Shown here: positions 2 through 8,145 of the stretch, piece by piece | Layout of the letters: the number at the start of each line of letters is the position of its first letter | How positions within the stretch are numbered: the stretch's first letter is position 1 | Source: Gemmatimonadota bacterium | GTDB lineage: Bacteria > Gemmatimonadota > Gemmatimonadetes > Palauibacterales > KS3-K002 | NCBI GenBank assembly: GCA_020350785.1 | Contig: CP070722.1 | Span: forward strand, 1,668,611 to 1,732,610 | DNA: 64,000 bases | Direction of reading: 5' to 3' | Notes under the pieces: generated by a model | Database searches by the model: none | The model's input: only the letters and a program-made list of their open reading frames with translations | Told to the model about the DNA's origin: nothing | Program-made: the position numbers and the translations under genes

Positions 2-1951
2 GAACGTGCGCCGTCACCGGGTGCCGATGGGCAGCAGTCGCTCGCACACTATTCTTTGGGAATCGCGTTCAGGGCACGCGGATTCTACGGAGAGGCGCGT
101 CAAGAGTTCGAGCGTGGCCGCGCGGTCGGCGAGGAAGTGGATCTAATAGATCAGGCCGAGGCTGAGCTTGCGCTGCTCGATAGTGATGCGCAGGTAGCAC
201 TGGCGCGATACGATGCGCTTCTTGCACGCTCCGGCGGTAACTGCAAGCTGTGGAACGAGCGCGGGGTGACTCTACACTTGCTCGGTCGGTCGGGCGAAGC
301 CGAGGCGAGTTACCGTGAGGCGCTGAAACTCGACGGCGATTACGCCCTGGCCTGGAACAACGTGGGTGTACTGAGCGTGTATTGCGGTGACAGCCGGGGT
401 GCTGAAGAAGCCTTTGGCCGGGCGCTTGGGTGTCGACCGGATCTCGATGACGCGCGCTTCAACCTGGGCTTGCTCCTGGTTGCGACCGGCCGGGCGGACC
501 GTAGTCTGAGGATCTACCGCGAGATTCTCGAATCCGATGGGGGAAGGGCGGAAGCGTGGAACAGGCTGGGGGCAGCGCTGATGGAGCTGGATCGTGTAAG
601 GGAGGCCCGCAACGCGTTCGCGCGTGCCGTCGAGGCGGATCCGAGTCTGGCGTCGGCTCGGTATAACCTCAGCTTCGCTCTGGCGCGGCTGGGCGATCAC
701 GACGGCGCACTGAGGGAAACGAAGCAGGCGCTGGAGCTCGACCCCTACTATACAGCGCCGCGCTATAGGCTGTCGATCGACTTGCAGTACGAAGGCGGGG
801 AAGTCTGGGCGCCGGAGCTGGCGGCGCCTGAACGGTTGGAAGCTAGGGGGCCTGGCGTACGAGAGTTCGAGTTCGATCCGGCTGAACTCGCACAGGTATT
901 CGAAGAACTCGATTCGGTTGAACCGGAGGCTGGAGACAGGCGAGCGGGCGACCTGTTCCGCCTAGCTCGCGACAACCTGGAGAATGGACTTTACGATCGG
1001 GCGCTGTCGGAAGCGGTGCGCGCGCTGCGCGAGGATGGCGACTCTGCGGAGGGGGCGCTGATCATCGCCGAGGTGTACAGGCAGCGCGGGCTCTACGGCG
1101 AGGCACTGGAGCGGTTTGAGGAAGCGCGCTCGATTCGGCCCGGCAATCCGGAGGCGCTTGCGGGTGTCGTGGGTTGCCTGCTGCGGCTGGATCGGGCAGC
1201 GGAGGCCCGCGAGGTGGCCGAGGAACTGCAACCGCTGGCCGCTTCCAGCGTCGGGCACTTGCTTGTTGTGGCAGAGGCGTTGACGAGCACGGGTGAAGCC
1301 AAGCGAGCGATCGAGGTTCTTGGCGTTGCGAGCGAACATGCTCCGCACGATGCGGTCGTGCATCGCCAGATCGCTAAGGCCGCACTGGCGGCCGGGAATC
1401 GACGGCGGGCGCGCGAGGCATATCGGAGGGCTATTGCCGAGGATCCCGATTTCACGGCGGCTCGCGTCGAGTTGGGCCGGATGTTGATGGAGGAAGGGGC
1501 ATACAGCGAAGCGGAGGGCGAGGTCCGTCAGGCATTGGAGCTGGTGCCCGCCTATGCCGAAGCCAACTTCGTGCTCGCCGAGGTCCTCAGCCGGCAGGGT
1601 AAGACACGCGAGATCATCAATCTGCTGGCGGGTTTCTTGGAGGCCGAACCATTCAACCTTGACGCTTTGATGCTGCTCGGGGAAGCGCTAGGCAGAGAGG
1701 GGCGACGCAGGGAGGCGGAGCAGGCGCTGCGGATGCTGCTGCGATTCGATCCGGAGCGGCCGGCCGCTCTGTTCCGCCTCGGCGAGTTGGCATCGGAGTC
1801 GGGCCGTCACGAGGAAGCTCTTGGTTGCTGGCGGAGGCTCGTCGACCTCGACCCGGAAGGCGAGTACGCCACGCGGGCCAGACTAAAGGCACGAGCAGCC
1901 CGACGACTGGGCGGCGGCTTCGACGAGTTTACCGCAGGGAGTGGCGCCTGA
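2..1951 (+). CDS. TPR-repeat protein. The ORF is open to the window edge, so the 5' end is probably partial; the first in-window start is TTG at 56.
   Basis: Translation is rich in TPR-like helical repeats (recurring A/L/G/Y/E heptads, many 'EA...L..DP' units). There is no in-frame stop upstream of position 56, and the N-terminus reads like the middle of a repeat. The stop overlaps the start of the next gene (ATGA). Confidence 0.6.
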   Translation, partial: ERAPSPGADGQQSLAHYSLGIAFRARGFYGEARQEFERGRAVGEEVDLIDQAEAELALLDSDAQVALARYDALLARSGGNCKLWNERGVTLHLLGRSGEAEASYREALKLDGDYALAWNNVGVLSVYCGDSRGAEEAFGRALGCRPDLDDARFNLGLLLVATGRADRSLRIYREILESDGGRAEAWNRLGAALMELDRVREARNAFARAVEADPSLASARYNLSFALARLGDHDGALRETKQALELDPYYTAPRYRLSIDLQYEGGEVWAPELAAPERLEARGPGVREFEFDPAELAQVFEELDSVEPEAGDRRAGDLFRLARDNLENGLYDRALSEAVRALREDGDSAEGALIIAEVYRQRGLYGEALERFEEARSIRPGNPEALAGVVGCLLRLDRAAEAREVAEELQPLAASSVGHLLVVAEALTSTGEAKRAIEVLGVASEHAPHDAVVHRQIAKAALAAGNRRRAREAYRRAIAEDPDFTAARVELGRMLMEEGAYSEAEGEVRQALELVPAYAEANFVLAEVLSRQGKTREIINLLAGFLEAEPFNLDALMLLGEALGREGRRREAEQALRMLLRFDPERPAALFRLGELASESGRHEEALGCWRRLVDLDPEGEYATRARLKARAARRLGGGFDEFTAGSGA

Positions 1952-3084
1952 TGCCGATCGAGGGGACACTGCGCGAGTTCGCCCTGCCCGACATCTTTCA
2001 ATTGCTAAATATGTCACGCAAGTCGGGGGAGCTGGGTATCGTGCAGTCGCCGTCGGGTGTACGCGGAGCAGTGCTGTTCAGCGATGGAGCAGTGATAGAT
2101 GCTCGGTTGGCCGACACGCCCTCACGTTTGGCGTACATGCTTCTGAACGCCGGTAAGATCAGCGAGGCGGAACTACGCAAGGCGGAGCGAACGCACGCTA
2201 AGAACCCTGCACAAAGTTGGAAGGAGATATTCCGAGGATTGGGATCGGTTGCCACGGAAGACTTGGATGAATACGCCAGGTTCGAGGTTGAGGAGCATAT
2301 CTACGAGATCCTCGACTGGCGCGATGGCCATTTCGTTTTCAGCGAGCGATCGATCGCGAATTCAGAGCGCGTTACATTCATTCCGGTCGAGTCGCTGCTG
2401 ATGGAGGGGGCACGGCGTGCAGATGAGCTTTCCGCCCTTGGCGCCTCGCTCGAAGGTTCGGCGGCGATTCCCAGATTGGCAGAGCAGGCGGCGACGGACA
2501 CAGGCGTGATCGACTTGTCGCCTGAAGAGTGGGAGATCTTGGGTCGAGTCGATGGGGTGGCCAACGTGAGGACGCTCTCCTGGACGCTGGGTCGGAGCGA
2601 ATTCGAGGTGAGTAAGGCCATCTCGAGCTTGGTCGCCAAAGGCATCTTGGAGTTCGGCTCGCGTCGGGAAGCGATCGCTCCCGAGCGACAGGAAGACGTA
2701 CTCGGTCAAGCGGCAGAGCTGATCGAGCGAGACGAGATGCAGGCGGCGAGAGTTCGGATCGATTCCGCGCCGAAGAGAGGGCAAGATGAGCCTCGTGCGC
2801 AATACCTAGCAGCGCTCGTGTTGGAGCGGGAGGGCGATTTGCGCGGAGCGGAGCGAGGCTACGAGGGGATTCTAAGACTCGATCCATTAGCGCACGAGGC
2901 CCGGAAGCGTCTGGGCCTGGTGCGCCTCAAGCTGGGTGACATAGCTGGTGCCGCGCGGTCGTGGGAGTTCTGTCTCCAGGCCGCCTCCGACGCCGCCGAG
3001 CGCGAGCGGTTTGAGCGGGGGTTGAGAGCGCTGCGTGAGCTACAAGCTCTAATCCATGAGATCGATGACCGGGAAAACTCGTAG
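1948..3084 (+). CDS. DUF4388 (PATAN-like) domain protein with C-terminal TPR repeats
   Basis: The N-terminus MPIEGTLREFALPDIFQLLNMSRKSGELGI...VLFSDGAVIDA is the characteristic DUF4388/PATAN signature. The C-terminal third is TPR-like. The ATG overlaps the upstream stop (ctgATGcc), indicating translational coupling. Confidence 0.7.
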   Translation: MMPIEGTLREFALPDIFQLLNMSRKSGELGIVQSPSGVRGAVLFSDGAVIDARLADTPSRLAYMLLNAGKISEAELRKAERTHAKNPAQSWKEIFRGLGSVATEDLDEYARFEVEEHIYEILDWRDGHFVFSERSIANSERVTFIPVESLLMEGARRADELSALGASLEGSAAIPRLAEQAATDTGVIDLSPEEWEILGRVDGVANVRTLSWTLGRSEFEVSKAISSLVAKGILEFGSRREAIAPERQEDVLGQAAELIERDEMQAARVRIDSAPKRGQDEPRAQYLAALVLEREGDLRGAERGYEGILRLDPLAHEARKRLGLVRLKLGDIAGAARSWEFCLQAASDAAERERFERGLRALRELQALIHEIDDRENS

Positions 3085-3880
3085 GTCGTTGCAGGAGTTG
3101 AGCGCTGAAGTCGCAACGAACCCGGGTTCCACTGCGTTCGTGGAGCTTGCCGAGGCCTACCGTGAGCGGGGCGACACGGAACGGGCGTTGCGGCTGTGCC
3201 TGCGAGGGCTGCAACGGCACCCGACCCACGCGGCGGCGCACTACGAGCTCGGACGCATTTACGAGGCGCGGAGTGAGCGGGAGCTGGCGTTGGATGAGTT
3301 TGGAATCGTTCGCCAGCTGGCGCCCGATCATCTGCCGGGCCGTCTCGCGATCGCACGGCTCTACCTCGAGGAAGGTCGGCTCGAGGATGCCGAGCGCGAG
3401 TTGAACCGAGCGGGCCGCCTCGGGGAGAGGGAGCCTGCGATCGCCGCGCTGCGGAAAGAGCTCGCAGCTGCTCGCGCCGAGGAGGAGCTGATCCGAGCTT
3501 CAGCGCCCGAGCCGGAGCGCAGGTCGCTTGCGACGCTGGCGGAGGAGCATCCGGGAACACTCGGCATCCTACTGGTGGATGGCGATGGTCAGCTGATTGA
3601 CGGGGAGATGAAGGCCGGGGAATTCGAGTCAGGGCGCATGCTGGCTGTAACGCTGAGTGGCGCGCGCAAGGAGTCTGAGCGGGTCGCGAGCCATCTCCAG
3701 TTGGGAAAGCTGAAGCGGATCGTGATTGAGAGTCCGGAGATTCGACTGACGGTGTCGCCTGCGACGCGGGGCTTTGTGGTGGTCGCCGCGCGCGGTGACT
3801 CTCCGCCTGGACAAGCGGAGCTGCTGTTGCGCCGTGCGCGGGAGCTGAGCGACCGAGAGACGCCGGAGGCGACGGGTTGA
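3056..3880 (+). CDS. TPR + Roadblock/LC7 (MglB-like) fusion protein
   Basis: There are N-terminal TPR repeats. The C-terminal region GTLGILLVDGDGQLIDGEM...GRMLAVTLSG...LKRIVIESPEIRLTV fits the Roadblock/LC7 fold pattern. The gene overlaps the upstream gene's end and its stop overlaps the next start. Confidence 0.6.
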   Translation: MRSMTGKTRRSLQELSAEVATNPGSTAFVELAEAYRERGDTERALRLCLRGLQRHPTHAAAHYELGRIYEARSERELALDEFGIVRQLAPDHLPGRLAIARLYLEEGRLEDAERELNRAGRLGEREPAIAALRKELAAARAEEELIRASAPEPERRSLATLAEEHPGTLGILLVDGDGQLIDGEMKAGEFESGRMLAVTLSGARKESERVASHLQLGKLKRIVIESPEIRLTVSPATRGFVVVAARGDSPPGQAELLLRRARELSDRETPEATG

Positions 3881-4233
3881 AGACGGTCTACGCCGATCTA
3901 TTGAGGGAGATCATGCGCATGCCCGGCGTGCGAGGAGCGATCGTCGTCGCTGTGCGGGACGGGTTGGTCGTAGATGGACGTGTTCATGTTGGAATACGAA
4001 GTGATGCTGTCGCTGCGCTTGCGGCATCGCTCTTTCAGCGAGCGCTCCGCTCGACGGAGACAGGTAGGGAAGAGAGGCGGTTTGTCGAACTGGAGGCCGA
4101 CCGCGGCCGCATCATGATGGCGGGGGAAGGTGAGTTGGCCTTAATGGCCATACTTGAGCCCAGAGCCAACGCGGGTCAGGCGCGTTTGGCGATTCAGCGA
4201 GCGGCAACGGCGCTTGCGGGAGGCGGGGGGTAG
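3877..4233 (+). CDS. Roadblock/LC7 domain protein (MglB-like)
   Basis: 118 aa. The sequence MKTVYADLLREIMRMPGVRGAIVVAVRDGLVVDG...AALAASL...LEADRGRIMMAG is the canonical Roadblock/LC7 pattern. The start overlaps the upstream stop (GTTGA). Confidence 0.7.
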   Translation: MKTVYADLLREIMRMPGVRGAIVVAVRDGLVVDGRVHVGIRSDAVAALAASLFQRALRSTETGREERRFVELEADRGRIMMAGEGELALMAILEPRANAGQARLAIQRAATALAGGGG

Positions 4234-4239
4234 CGCTGG

Positions 4240-4728
4240 ATGCGGGGTCTCAAGCTGCGGCAGATCCAGGACACCTTTTCCGAACCGCTACAGGGATTCG
4301 TGCGTGATTCCGGGGTCAGGTCGTCAGTGTTGATCAACCGCAGTGGGCAGGTGCTCGCGCAACACGGTTTCGACAAGGTATTCGATCTCGTGGGTGTCGC
4401 TTCTCTTGCTGCCGGTATCAACGCGTCGAGCCGAGCGCTGGCCAGGCAGTTGGGGGAGGATGAGTTTGAGCACCTGCATCATGCTGGACGGTCTCGTCAG
4501 CTGTTCCTCGGACACTTCGAGGCGGCTGGGGGTCAGCTCATGCTTGTAGCCGTGTTCGATGAGCGCTCCTCGATCGGCCTGGTGCGTCTGTTCTTCGAGC
4601 AATTCGTTGCCAACCTGCGCGAGTTGCCCGAAATGCAGATTGTGCGGCCGGCGGAGAATGCGAGGGATTTCGAGGCTGATCTGGAGTCGAGCCTCGATCG
4701 ATTTTTCAGGGATCTGATAGGCGGTTGA
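4240..4728 (+). CDS. Roadblock/LC7-like protein (third paralog, divergent)
   Basis: 162 aa. The sequence VRDSGVRSSVLINRSGQVLAQHGFD...VGVASLAAGINASSRALARQLGE...LMLVAVFDERSSIGLVRLFFEQF matches the Roadblock topology. The stop is 1 nt before the mglA ATG. Confidence 0.5.
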   Translation: MRGLKLRQIQDTFSEPLQGFVRDSGVRSSVLINRSGQVLAQHGFDKVFDLVGVASLAAGINASSRALARQLGEDEFEHLHHAGRSRQLFLGHFEAAGGQLMLVAVFDERSSIGLVRLFFEQFVANLRELPEMQIVRPAENARDFEADLESSLDRFFRDLIGG

Positions 4729-4729
4729 T

Positions 4730-5368
4730 ATGTCGCTGGTGAACTACGCGACGCGGGAGATCACCTGCAAGATCGTCTACTACGGCCCGGGGCGGTCGGG
4801 CAAGACGACGAATTTGCAGTACGTATACAGCCGTGTGCCATGGAACCGGAAAGGCGAGATGGTTTCGTTGGCGACCGACTCGGACCGCACGCTTTTCTTC
4901 GATTTTCTGCCCTTGGAGTTGGGTCGGATATCCGGGTTCACGACGCGTTTTCAGCTGTACACGGTGCCGGGACAGGTTTACTACAACGCGACGCGCAAGC
5001 TAGTACTCCAGGGAGCTGACGGGGTAGTATTCGTAGCCGACAGTCAGCGATCACAGTTCGCTGAAGATATCGAGTCGTTCCGTAATCTTCAGGAGAATCT
5101 GTTGGAGCATGGCATCGACATCCGCGAGATCCCGGTCGTGATTCAATACAACAAACGGGACCTGCCCAACACATTCAGCGTCGCATACTTGGAGGAGGAG
5201 CTTAACTTCCGCAATGTGCCCAGTTTTCCGGCCGCCGCACTCCACGGGAAAGGGGTGTTCGACACGCTCCGATCGGTCAGCGAGGGGGTGTTGAGAAAAC
5301 TGGCCAGGAAGCTCAATGGCTCGACGGATGCGATCACACCAGAGGTTGACCGTGCCGGTAAACGTTGA
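4730..5368 (+). CDS. mglA: Ras-like polarity GTPase MglA
   Basis: Near-colinear match to my memory of Myxococcus MglA: CKIVYYGPGRSGKTTNLQYVY (P-loop), DSDRTLFFDFLPLELG (intrinsic Arg), YTVPGQVYY (switch II Gln), VIQYNKRDLP (G4 NKxD). Length is 212 aa. Confidence 0.9.
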   Translation: MSLVNYATREITCKIVYYGPGRSGKTTNLQYVYSRVPWNRKGEMVSLATDSDRTLFFDFLPLELGRISGFTTRFQLYTVPGQVYYNATRKLVLQGADGVVFVADSQRSQFAEDIESFRNLQENLLEHGIDIREIPVVIQYNKRDLPNTFSVAYLEEELNFRNVPSFPAAALHGKGVFDTLRSVSEGVLRKLARKLNGSTDAITPEVDRAGKR

Positions 5369-5375
5369 CCCACGG

Positions 5376-6536
5376 ATGACCTTCTTTTCCTTTGTGGTCG
5401 GTCCGGAGAATCGGCTTGCCTGGGAGGCGGCGCGCACGGCGGCTGAATCACCAGGATCTGCCTACAATCCACTCTTCATTTACAGCCATACCGGGCTGGG
5501 CAAGACGCACCTGCTGGTGGCCATCGCTAACCGAGCCAGCGAGCTTCAGCCCGACATTGCAGTTGTTTATACGCCGGTCGAGCAACTATTGCGGGAGCTG
5601 GGTTCAGAATCGGGCGTAGAGGCAACCTACCACGGCGCCGAGATTCTACTCATTGATGATCTTCAATTCATCGGCCACCACAGCGACGACCACCGGGTCC
5701 TTTTCTCCTTACTCGATGACCTGTTGATGAGAGGCAGGCAGGTGGCGCTTGCCTGCGATCGGCCGCCTCTGGAGTTGGGAGAACTGGATGATCGGCTACT
5801 CTCGAGGTTCAGCGGTGGGCTGGTTGTCGATATCGGCCGCCCGGTGCTCGAGACGCGCAAGGCTATACTGGAAGCTCGTCTGGCTGCCGCCGATCTGAGA
5901 CTGCAACCTGAGGTCGTTGATGCGATCGCGCGCTTGGCGTCAGAGAACGTTCGGCAACTCAACGGTGCGCTCAATCGAGTCCTCGCGGCTCAAGAAGTGG
6001 AAGGGCGCGAAGTCCGACCGGATGAGGTGGATGGCCTACTGGTCGAACTCGTGGGCGATGCCGACCTTCCCTGGCTGGCGGACGGTCGCCGCGGCGACGA
6101 GAGCGAGTTCCAGAGTTTCTTGACCGACGTGTCCTCTGCTGTCGAGCGAGCTCTGACGACCCCGAAGTGGCATGAAGATGTGGCGCGAGCGATCCTCAAG
6201 TGGGAGGCGGAAGGCTACTCGACTCGGCGCTTGGAACAGTTGCTGGAGGACGAGAAGCCGGTCGATTCCGAGCACGAGGTCGCGGCCTACGAACAGGATA
6301 TCGAAACTCTCAGGGGTCTGCAGCGCGACTTTGACCAGTTGCAGGTCCAGGTGCCGAAAGATCTGTCTTTCAAAGATCCGGCTGCGATCCCCCAGCTGCG
6401 AGCGTTGTTGGAACGGTTGCGCCGCACCGCCCTCGCCGTGGACGACTACTTCCTTGACCCGGAGAAGGTCATCTGGGACTGGCCTGTGTTCGATCAGAAG
6501 TTCATGGAGAGCTGGGACGATGGCGATCAAAGGTAG
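5376..6536 (+). CDS. DnaA-like AAA+ ATPase paralog (DnaA domain III only; the domain IV HTH appears absent and is replaced by an acidic C-terminal domain)
   Basis: Motifs seen: FSFVVGPENRLAWEAA...NPLFIYSHTGLGKTHLL (DnaA box VII/Walker A), LLIDDLQF (Walker B), LACDRPP (sensor I), SRFSGGLVVDIGRPVLETRKAIL, and NVRQLNGALNRV (sensor II). The C-terminal ~150 aa has no DnaA signature (HTH/DNA-binding) motif. The ATG at 5376 is 8 nt after the mglA stop, and the stop overlaps the next gene. Confidence 0.75.
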   Translation: MTFFSFVVGPENRLAWEAARTAAESPGSAYNPLFIYSHTGLGKTHLLVAIANRASELQPDIAVVYTPVEQLLRELGSESGVEATYHGAEILLIDDLQFIGHHSDDHRVLFSLLDDLLMRGRQVALACDRPPLELGELDDRLLSRFSGGLVVDIGRPVLETRKAILEARLAAADLRLQPEVVDAIARLASENVRQLNGALNRVLAAQEVEGREVRPDEVDGLLVELVGDADLPWLADGRRGDESEFQSFLTDVSSAVERALTTPKWHEDVARAILKWEAEGYSTRRLEQLLEDEKPVDSEHEVAAYEQDIETLRGLQRDFDQLQVQVPKDLSFKDPAAIPQLRALLERLRRTALAVDDYFLDPEKVIWDWPVFDQKFMESWDDGDQR

Positions 6537-8145
6537 CCTGAAAGAGGCAAGCCTTCCCGACGTTCTCCAGCTCCTGGCCATGGGAGGCAAGACTGGCTGT
6601 CTCTCAGTGACGGACCGGCAGAGCTTCGGCTACGTGTATCTGGAAGAGGGTCGGGTCATCTACGCATCGCTGTTTAACCGCCGAGACCGTCTGGGGGACA
6701 TCCTCGTTCGCGAGGGCGTGGTCACGCGCGAGCAAGTCGAAGAAGCCTTGGTTGAGCAGAATCAGAAGAAGGATGGCCGGCGGATCGGCGACATTCTAAA
6801 GGATCGGGGGGAGATCGATCAGGCGGTTCTGGAACGTTATGTGGGGCACCAGGTCGAGGAAGCTGTTTATCAACTATTTGCCTGGAGCCAAGGCACCTTC
6901 TACTTCGAGCCTGCACAATCGCCGGAAGACGAGACCATCCTTGTTTCGATCGATACGGAGAGCCTTCTGCTGGAGGGCGCGCGCCGGGTTGACGAGTGGA
7001 GTCAGATTCAGAAGAAGATCCCGTCGTTCGAGCTGATATACGCTCTCGATCCGGACCGTTCGTTGTCCATATCCTCGCTGGACTTGAGCGCTGAACAACA
7101 GAAGATACTTCCCTATCTCGATGGCAGGCACAGCGCCTGGGAGATAATCGAGCTCACCGCCATGAGCGACTTCGGTCTCGGCAAAGCGCTGTACGGACTG
7201 ATCGCGGCGGGTCTGGTGCGACGCGTGGGCCGGCGCGAACGGCAAGCCGAGCGACCCCAGATACAGGCGCGGGTGCGAGAGCACAAGAACCTGGGGATCG
7301 CCTTCTACAAGACGGGTCTTTACGAGGAGGCTCTGAGGGAGCTGGAGAGGGTACGCGAGTTGGATCTGGATGACTTGGAAGCCGACTTCTGTCTCGCGCT
7401 TGTGGAGCTGCGGCGCGGTAAGCTAGAAGACGCGGGTCAAGCGCTCATGGGGATCAGAAAGCGCGGTGGCAGTTGTGCCGCGCTCTTCAACAATCTAGCT
7501 CTCGTCTACGATGGACTAGGAAGGCGGTCGCAGGCGATGTCGCTAATTGATGAGGGTTTGGCGAGGCACGAAGGCCATCCGAGGCTCGTGCTCACCAAGT
7601 CGATGCTTCTGCTCAAGCTCGGCAACACGGCGGAGGCACGGGAAGCGCTCGACCGGTACTTGGAGAAGGTGGAAGAGCCCGAGCCGCTGTACTACTCGAC
7701 TCGAGCTCTGGCCGAGGCCATGTCGGCCGACATCGCCTCGGCGACCGTGACCGCGTTAGCGGGCTTAGCCAAGCATCCGAATGAGGCAGCACTGAGCAAC
7801 AACGCCGGAGTAATACTGGAAAGGGATGGTGACCTGAGTCGAGCTCGGTCAATGTATCAGAGGGCGCTCGATTTGAATGGTGACTTGCCTCAGGCATCGA
7901 AGAACCTCGGCGACCTGCTCTACCGCGAGGGGGAGTACGATGATGCGGCCCGTGCCTACGAACAGGCCTTGCGGGTGGATCCTCAGCTCGGCGACGACAT
8001 CTACGCGAGACTGGGTAATATCTATTACAAGGCTGGGGGGAGGGAAATAGCGATCGAGATGTGGGAGAAGGCGCTCCAGCTCAACCCGGCCAATGAAGTG
8101 GTGCGAACGAACCTGGAGTTTGTGAAGGGGGCGATTCGTGAGTGA
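6520..8145 (+). CDS. DUF4388 (PATAN-like) domain protein with C-terminal TPR repeats (second paralog)
   Basis: The N-terminus MAIKGSLKEASLPDVLQLLAMGGKTGCLSVTD...VYLEEGRVIYA parallels gene 1948-3084. The remainder is TPR-like. The start overlaps the end of the DnaA-like gene. Confidence 0.7.
   Translation: MAIKGSLKEASLPDVLQLLAMGGKTGCLSVTDRQSFGYVYLEEGRVIYASLFNRRDRLGDILVREGVVTREQVEEALVEQNQKKDGRRIGDILKDRGEIDQAVLERYVGHQVEEAVYQLFAWSQGTFYFEPAQSPEDETILVSIDTESLLLEGARRVDEWSQIQKKIPSFELIYALDPDRSLSISSLDLSAEQQKILPYLDGRHSAWEIIELTAMSDFGLGKALYGLIAAGLVRRVGRRERQAERPQIQARVREHKNLGIAFYKTGLYEEALRELERVRELDLDDLEADFCLALVELRRGKLEDAGQALMGIRKRGGSCAALFNNLALVYDGLGRRSQAMSLIDEGLARHEGHPRLVLTKSMLLLKLGNTAEAREALDRYLEKVEEPEPLYYSTRALAEAMSADIASATVTALAGLAKHPNEAALSNNAGVILERDGDLSRARSMYQRALDLNGDLPQASKNLGDLLYREGEYDDAARAYEQALRVDPQLGDDIYARLGNIYYKAGGREIAIEMWEKALQLNPANEVVRTNLEFVKGAIRE

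What the first reader, a model, noticed from the sequence alone, without database searches (positions are those of the whole stretch)
5376..6536. DnaA paralog lacking domain IV embedded in the mglA operon
The protein carries every DnaA domain-III hallmark (box VII NPLFIYSHTGLGKTHLL, Walker B LLIDDLQF, sensor I LACDRPP, sensor II NVRQLNGALNRV). It ends in about 150 aa of acidic/helical sequence with no DnaA signature (HTH) motif and no N-terminal domain I/II. Hda-like proteins are this short but normally sit near replication genes, not between a small GTPase and a PATAN protein. It could act as an AAA+ switch in the polarity module, or couple replication initiation status to polarity or division.
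Basis: partly seen in the sequence, partly recalled or inferred. Interest (0 to 1): 0.75.

Follow-up and report, generated by a model that had tools for sequence, protein, structure and literature searches.

The report
DnaA-derived ATPase inside MglA polarity operon
A conserved Gemmatimonadota protein has kept the ATP-binding engine of the replication initiator DnaA but lost its DNA-binding parts, and it always sits between the polarity GTPase gene mglA and a PATAN-TPR gene, which suggests the initiator engine was reused for cell-polarity or motility signalling.

Summary
Window 5352/5376-6536 (+) encodes a 394-aa (386 from the ATG) acidic protein (pI 4.6). Residues 1-235 are a DnaA domain III AAA+ module with every catalytic motif. 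Domains I, II and IV are absent. The C-terminus is a roughly 110-aa helical module, plus a conserved D-x-EKV(V/I)W-x-WP tail, with no Pfam or PDB relative.

The gene overlaps mglA upstream and a PATAN-TPR gene downstream by 17 nt each. The family was confirmed in 330 species genomes, and the best 80 are all Gemmatimonadota. Among those 80, mglB-mglA sits immediately upstream in 76/76 loci with upstream DNA, and PATAN-TPR sits downstream in 79/79. The block is nested in a che operon in 54/54 loci with enough flank.

Gemmatimonadales carry a tandem form (AAA-helical-AAA-tail). The helical module also occurs as 6-17 repeats in Thermoplasmata giant proteins, some fused to a DnaA-type AAA+.

The window has no DnaA boxes, no dnaN and no GC-skew turn. 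I found no literature on this family.

Best reading: a non-replicative ATP switch or scaffold of the Che-Mgl polarity module. Its identity is solid; its mechanism is inferred. A canonical dnaA elsewhere in these genomes could not be checked. JGI records often name these proteins 'DnaA'.

The parts
5352..6536 (+). DnaA-derived AAA+ protein, 394 aa from the probable GTG start at 5352 (386 aa from ATG 5376). The stop codon is at 6534-6536.
   Evidence: ORF. The start is inferred from the N-terminal alignment with 38 homologues and the AGAGG 6 nt upstream. More than 100 full-length homologue clusters were found.
5352..6056 (+). AAA+ module (DnaA domain III, base plus lid), residues 1-235.
   Evidence: Pfam Bac_DnaA E 1.9e-39. 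TIGR00362 profile positions 108-339. PDB 8bv3 E 9e-41. Foldseek TMt 0.86. 41% identity to E. coli DnaA domain III against 23% to Hda.
5493..5507 (+). Walker A GLGKT (equivalent to E. coli K178).
   Evidence: K is invariant in 125/125 single-form relatives.
5580..5642 (+). Shortened initiator-specific motif (ISM) region, about 6 residues shorter than in DnaA. The stretch holding B. subtilis I190 falls in the gap.
   Evidence: HMMER alignment to 8bv3/8btg and MAFFT alignment.
5646..5660 (+). Walker B LLIDD (D235/D236).
5751..5768 (+). Sensor I ACDRPP (D269).
5787..5810 (+). Box VII DDRLLSRF with both arginines (R281, and R285, the arginine finger).
   Evidence: Invariant in alignment A1.
5946..5972 (+). 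Sensor II / box VIII NVRQLNGAL (R334).
6057..6095 (+). Linker predicted to be disordered, carrying a clade-specific conserved P-W-L motif.
   Evidence: pLDDT below 50 for residues 235-269. W241 is nearly invariant.
6096..6434 (+). Helical 'H' module (EF..FL.DVS.AVE ... W..EGY.T.RLE..L ... ERD...L ... DP...). It has no Pfam family. The same module is tandemly repeated in Thermoplasmata giant proteins.
   Evidence: AF2 helices at pLDDT 79-94. The exhaustive profile search found 360 representatives, including proteins with 6-17 repeats. No PDB relative.
6435..6512 (+). Conserved C-terminal tail motif VDDYFLDPEKVIWDWP (D-x-[FY]F-x-D-x-EKV[VI]W-x-WP). It is predicted to be unstructured and is probably a docking peptide.
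   Evidence: Invariant D364, E371, K372, W377 and P378. Low pLDDT. It is retained after the second AAA+ module in tandem forms.
4730..5368 (+). mglA (Ras-like polarity GTPase). Its 3' end overlaps the DnaA-like start by 17 nt.
   Evidence: E 1.7e-75 to M. xanthus MglA 5ymx. Immediately upstream in 76/76 informative loci.
4240..4728 (+). mglB (Roadblock/LC7 GAP).
   Evidence: E 1.9e-13 to M. xanthus MglB 6h5b_B. Pfam Robl_LC7.
3877..4233 (+). Second Roadblock/LC7 protein.
   Evidence: Pfam Robl_LC7 and PDB 7f8m.
3056..3880 (+). TPR-Roadblock fusion protein.
   Evidence: Pfam TPR plus Robl_LC7.
1951..3084 (+). Upstream PATAN(DUF4388)-TPR protein.
   Evidence: Pfam DUF4388 E 1e-25. 79% identity to the L091 orthologue, starting at 1951.
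6520..8145 (+). Downstream PATAN(DUF4388)-TPR protein. Its start overlaps the DnaA-like stop by 17 nt.
   Evidence: Pfam DUF4388 E 2.5e-39 plus TPRs. Sequence. Immediately downstream in 79/79 informative loci.
5..1951 (+). 3' two-thirds of an 899-aa TPR protein of the same operon, cut by the window edge.
   Evidence: 82% identity to residues 252-899 of the L091 orthologue. TPR hits.

Best explanation
**What it is.** This is a non-replicative descendant of the replication initiator DnaA. It keeps a catalytically complete initiator-type AAA+ ATPase. It has lost the helicase-recruiting domain I and the DnaA-box-binding domain IV. It has gained a helical protein-interaction module and a conserved W-x-W-P tail. 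It is a fixed subunit of the Gemmatimonadota MglA/MglB polarity module, which is itself nested in a Frz-like che operon.

**Proposed mechanism (inferred).**
- ATP-bound protomers self-associate head-to-tail through the box VII arginine finger, as DnaA domain III does.
- This builds an oligomeric platform.
- The helical module and tail on that platform recruit the co-translated PATAN-TPR, TPR-Roadblock or MglA/MglB partners.
- ATP hydrolysis dismantles the platform.
- The protein would thus add a second, ATP-driven switch or timer to the GTP switch that sets cell polarity, motility direction or polar growth.

**Shown here:** domain identity, motif integrity, loss of the DNA-binding parts, invariant operon position, and phylum-wide conservation.

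**Inferred only:** oligomerisation, the partners, and the physiological output.
For: **Identity.** DnaA domain III by sequence and by fold. It is nearer to DnaA (41% identity) than to Hda (23%).

**ATPase and arginine-finger residues.** They are invariant in 39 homologues. In 125 single-form relatives they are kept in 113-125 sequences.

**Loss of DNA functions.**
- No domain IV or HTH.
- The ISM is shortened and the R245 position is acidic.
- The AAA+ module has pI 4.8, against 8.7 for E. coli DnaA domain III.

**Not at an origin.** The 64-kb window has no TTWTNCACA box, a monotonic cumulative GC skew, and no dnaN. The gene lies at 0.59/4.81, 2.02/4.74 and 2.24/3.04 Mb in three complete MAG chromosomes.

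**Functional linkage.**
- 17-nt overlaps with mglA and with the PATAN-TPR gene.
- mglB-mglA upstream in 76/76 loci, and PATAN-TPR downstream in 79/79.
- CheA/CheC upstream and CheR/CheB downstream in 54/54 loci.
- The core block is retained in this window even though cheR-cheD-cheB-cheW are absent.

**The helical module is an independent unit.** It recurs as repeats in archaeal proteins, five of them fused to a DnaA-type AAA+.
Against:
- The shortened ISM could also affect self-assembly.
- In tandem forms the second AAA+ is often degenerate: sensor I D is kept in only 10/43. Parts of the family may therefore act as static scaffolds.
- Operon membership shows functional linkage, not mechanism.
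- The physiological output (motility reversal, pili, budding or division) is unknown. The cluster's fixed position just upstream of mraZ/dcw could point to division instead.
- The presence of a canonical dnaA in the same genomes was not verified.
Confidence: 0.55

Rival explanations
1. Hda-like or capping regulator of the true initiator. The protein would use its DnaA-type AAA+ face and arginine finger to dock on DnaA-ATP. It would stimulate hydrolysis or cap DnaA filaments, coupling chemosensory, polarity or division status to replication initiation.
For: 41% identity to DnaA domain III, with box VII R281/R285 and sensor II intact. Hda sets a precedent for a DnaA-related AAA+ without a DNA-binding domain. 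The cluster always lies next to the dcw division cluster.
Against: - No N-terminal clamp-binding motif; only about 10 residues precede the AAA+ and none is Q.
- The Hda model scores 73.6 bits against a cutoff of 194.8.
- The gene is never next to replication genes, yet it is always translationally coupled to mglA and PATAN-TPR.
- The surface is strongly acidic and the ISM is shortened.
- The extra helical module and tail have no counterpart in Hda.
Confidence: 0.15
2. Positioning or partitioning ATPase for the cytoplasmic chemosensory and polarity complex. Its role would be analogous to the ParA-like PpfA/ParC encoded in some che operons, but built on a DnaA-type AAA+ instead of a ParA fold.
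For: The gene is nested in a che operon in 54/54 genomes. No MCP gene was seen among the called genes of three such operons. The ATPase motifs are intact.
Against: ParA-type positioning uses the nucleoid as a matrix. This protein lacks any DNA-binding domain and is acidic. The closest coupling is to mglA and PATAN-TPR, not to cheA or cheW. The block persists in this window without cheR/D/B/W.
Confidence: 0.15
3. It is the genuine, if unusual, replication initiator of these bacteria.
For: Public pipelines name relatives 'chromosomal replication initiator protein DnaA'. The presence of another dnaA in the same genome was not checked here.
Against: - No domain I and no domain IV.
- It scores below the DnaA equivalog cutoff, 221 against 344 bits.
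- No DnaA boxes, no dnaN and no skew inversion in 64 kb.
- Variable chromosomal position in three complete genomes.
- Invariant mglA/PATAN flanks.
Confidence: 0.02
4. Catalytically inert scaffold (pseudo-ATPase). It would bind nucleotide only structurally and simply bridge the TPR, PATAN and Roadblock proteins.
For: The second AAA+ of tandem relatives is frequently degenerate. Some relatives, such as P0127, have lost the second Walker B aspartate and the sensor II arginine.
Against: In the window's clade every catalytic residue is invariant across sequences only 48-85% identical. In 125 single-form relatives these residues are kept in 113-125 sequences. That pattern indicates selection for ATP turnover.
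Confidence: 0.08

Closest known systems
DnaA, bacterial replication initiator (domain III AAA+; TIGR00362, PF00308)
   Same: - Same fold: TMt 0.84-0.86 to B. subtilis and T. maritima domain III.
- 39-41% identity.
- The same Walker A/B, sensor I, box VII arginine finger and sensor II.
   Different: - No domain I/II and no domain IV or DnaA-box HTH.
- The ISM is shortened.
- Acidic (pI 4.6 against 8.8).
- An extra helical module and a W-x-W-P tail.
- Encoded in an mglA/che operon instead of next to dnaN/oriC.
- Below the family cutoff.
Hda / HdaA (DnaA-related regulatory inactivator; TIGR03420)
   Same: A DnaA-clade AAA+ protein without a DNA-binding domain that retains the arginine finger.
   Different: - Only 23% identity, and 73.6 bits against a cutoff of 194.8.
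- No N-terminal clamp-binding motif.
- 160 extra C-terminal residues.
- Different genomic context.
Frz chemosensory system plus MglA/MglB/RomR polarity module of Myxococcus xanthus
   Same: A bona fide MglA (E 1.7e-75) and MglB (E 1.9e-13), extra Roadblock paralogues, TPR partners, and a che system acting with them. Here they are fused into a single operon.
   Different: To my knowledge the Myxococcus module has no AAA+ ATPase component, and none appeared in the literature searches. Here the DnaA-like gene and two PATAN-TPR genes are fixed members of the block.
Tandem DnaA-like proteins of Gemmatimonadales (about 650 aa, AAA-H-AAA-tail)
   Same: The same H module, the same tail, and the same mglA / gene / PATAN-TPR position.
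   Different: A second DnaA-type AAA+ is inserted between the H module and the tail. Its sensor I is mostly lost. The first AAA+ keeps a full-length ISM.
Thermoplasmata giant H-repeat proteins, some with a C-terminal DnaA-type AAA+ and zinc ribbons
   Same: They share the roughly 90-aa H module (E down to 2e-40) and, in five representatives, its fusion to a DnaA-type AAA+.
   Different: - Six to 17 repeats.
- The AAA+ lies C-terminal and is 64% identical to B. subtilis DnaA domain III.
- No tail motif.
- No mglA or Roadblock genes nearby.

Membership tests
DnaA (chromosomal replication initiator, TIGR00362 equivalog) | AAA+ domain III with Walker A/B, sensor I, box VII arginine finger and sensor II. 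| tested here: met
DnaA (chromosomal replication initiator, TIGR00362 equivalog) | C-terminal domain IV (HTH, DnaA-box binding; DnaA signature). | tested here: not met
   The alignment stops at profile position 339 of 437. The C-terminus has no Pfam hit and no PDB sequence or fold match.
DnaA (chromosomal replication initiator, TIGR00362 equivalog) | N-terminal domain I/II (DnaB and DiaA interaction, self-association). | tested here: not met
   The match starts at profile position 108, and only about 10 residues precede the AAA+.
DnaA (chromosomal replication initiator, TIGR00362 equivalog) | Whole-protein score at or above the curated cutoff. | tested here: not met
   221.3 bits against a cutoff of 343.9.
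DnaA (chromosomal replication initiator, TIGR00362 equivalog) | Location at an origin: DnaA-box cluster, dnaN neighbour, GC-skew switch. | tested here: not met
   0 boxes in 64 kb. Monotonic skew. The neighbours are mglA and PATAN-TPR.
Hda (TIGR03420) | Whole-protein score at or above the curated cutoff. | tested here: not met
   73.6 bits against 194.8. 23% identity to E. coli Hda.
Hda (TIGR03420) | N-terminal beta-clamp-binding motif (QL[SP]LPL-like). | tested here: not met
   The N-terminus is MPVNVDPRMTF, and no such motif occurs in 39 aligned homologues. E. coli Hda shows QLSLPL.
Hda (TIGR03420) | AAA+-only architecture of about 230-250 aa. | tested here: not met
   394 aa, with a 160-aa helical module plus tail.
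DnaC/IstB helicase-loader AAA+ | Score above the family cutoff. | tested here: not met
   IstB_IS21 scores 21.3 bits against 24.1. NCBIfam IstB scores 34.8 against 200.
MglA/MglB polarity module (operon membership) | Adjacent, co-oriented bona fide mglA and mglB. | tested here: met
   76/76 informative genomes. 17-nt overlap with mglA.
MglA/MglB polarity module (operon membership) | Physical or genetic interaction with MglA, MglB or the PATAN-TPR proteins. | not testable with these tools
   This needs pull-downs, complex prediction or genetics.
Gemmatimonadota DnaA-like 'A-H-T' family (defined here) | DnaA-type AAA+ plus H module plus D-x-EKV(V/I)W-x-WP tail. | tested here: met

The most novel reading that the evidence does not exclude
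An initiator-clade (DnaA-type) AAA+ ATPase has been exapted as an ATP-driven, self-assembling component of a Ras-like GTPase polarity circuit across a whole bacterial phylum. The same AAA+/helical-module combination was assembled independently into giant rod-like proteins in Thermoplasmata archaea. If so, DnaA-type oligomerisation would serve as a cytoplasmic organising or timing principle outside DNA replication.
Probability: 0.4. Interest if true: 0.8.

Novelty: new variant of a known kind. Interest (0 to 1): 0.66.

Why it matters
DnaA-clade AAA+ proteins (DnaA, Hda, DnaC/IstB) are known only from DNA transactions. A phylum-wide, translationally coupled DnaA-derived subunit of the MglA/MglB module would be, to my knowledge, the first case of this ATPase type working in cell polarity or chemosensory signalling. 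It would add an ATP switch to the GTP switch.

It also has three practical consequences.
- **An undescribed domain.** The helical 'H' module is shared with archaeal giant proteins and has no Pfam family.
- **A testable entry point.** It gives a way into the cell biology of Gemmatimonadota, an abundant soil phylum whose polarity system is unstudied.
- **An annotation problem.** Hundreds of public records call these proteins 'chromosomal replication initiator protein DnaA'. That can mislead origin prediction and gene counting.

Tried and rejected
- **True initiator.** Rejected on missing domains, no DnaA boxes, no skew switch and the flanking genes.
- **Hda membership.** Rejected on score, identity, missing clamp motif and length.
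- **Archaeal relatives in a GTPase/Roadblock context.** They are not.
- **Archaeal N-terminal domain as PATAN.** This would have made a Rosetta-stone fusion. hhalign aligned the expected core strands, but at only 8.5% probability. Inconclusive, so not used.
- **Literature.** Searches for a DnaA-like protein in Mgl, PATAN, Roadblock, che or Gemmatimonadetes contexts found nothing relevant.
- **Canonical dnaA in Gemmatimonadota.** I tried papers and a supplement. The table lists Gemmatimonas aurantiaca entries, but the columns could not be tied to DnaA.
- **AFDB fold library.** It was unavailable.
- **Last homologue search.** I used it on a Gemmatimonadaceae tandem form hoping to see named cultured strains. 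Only MAG and metagenome proteins were returned.
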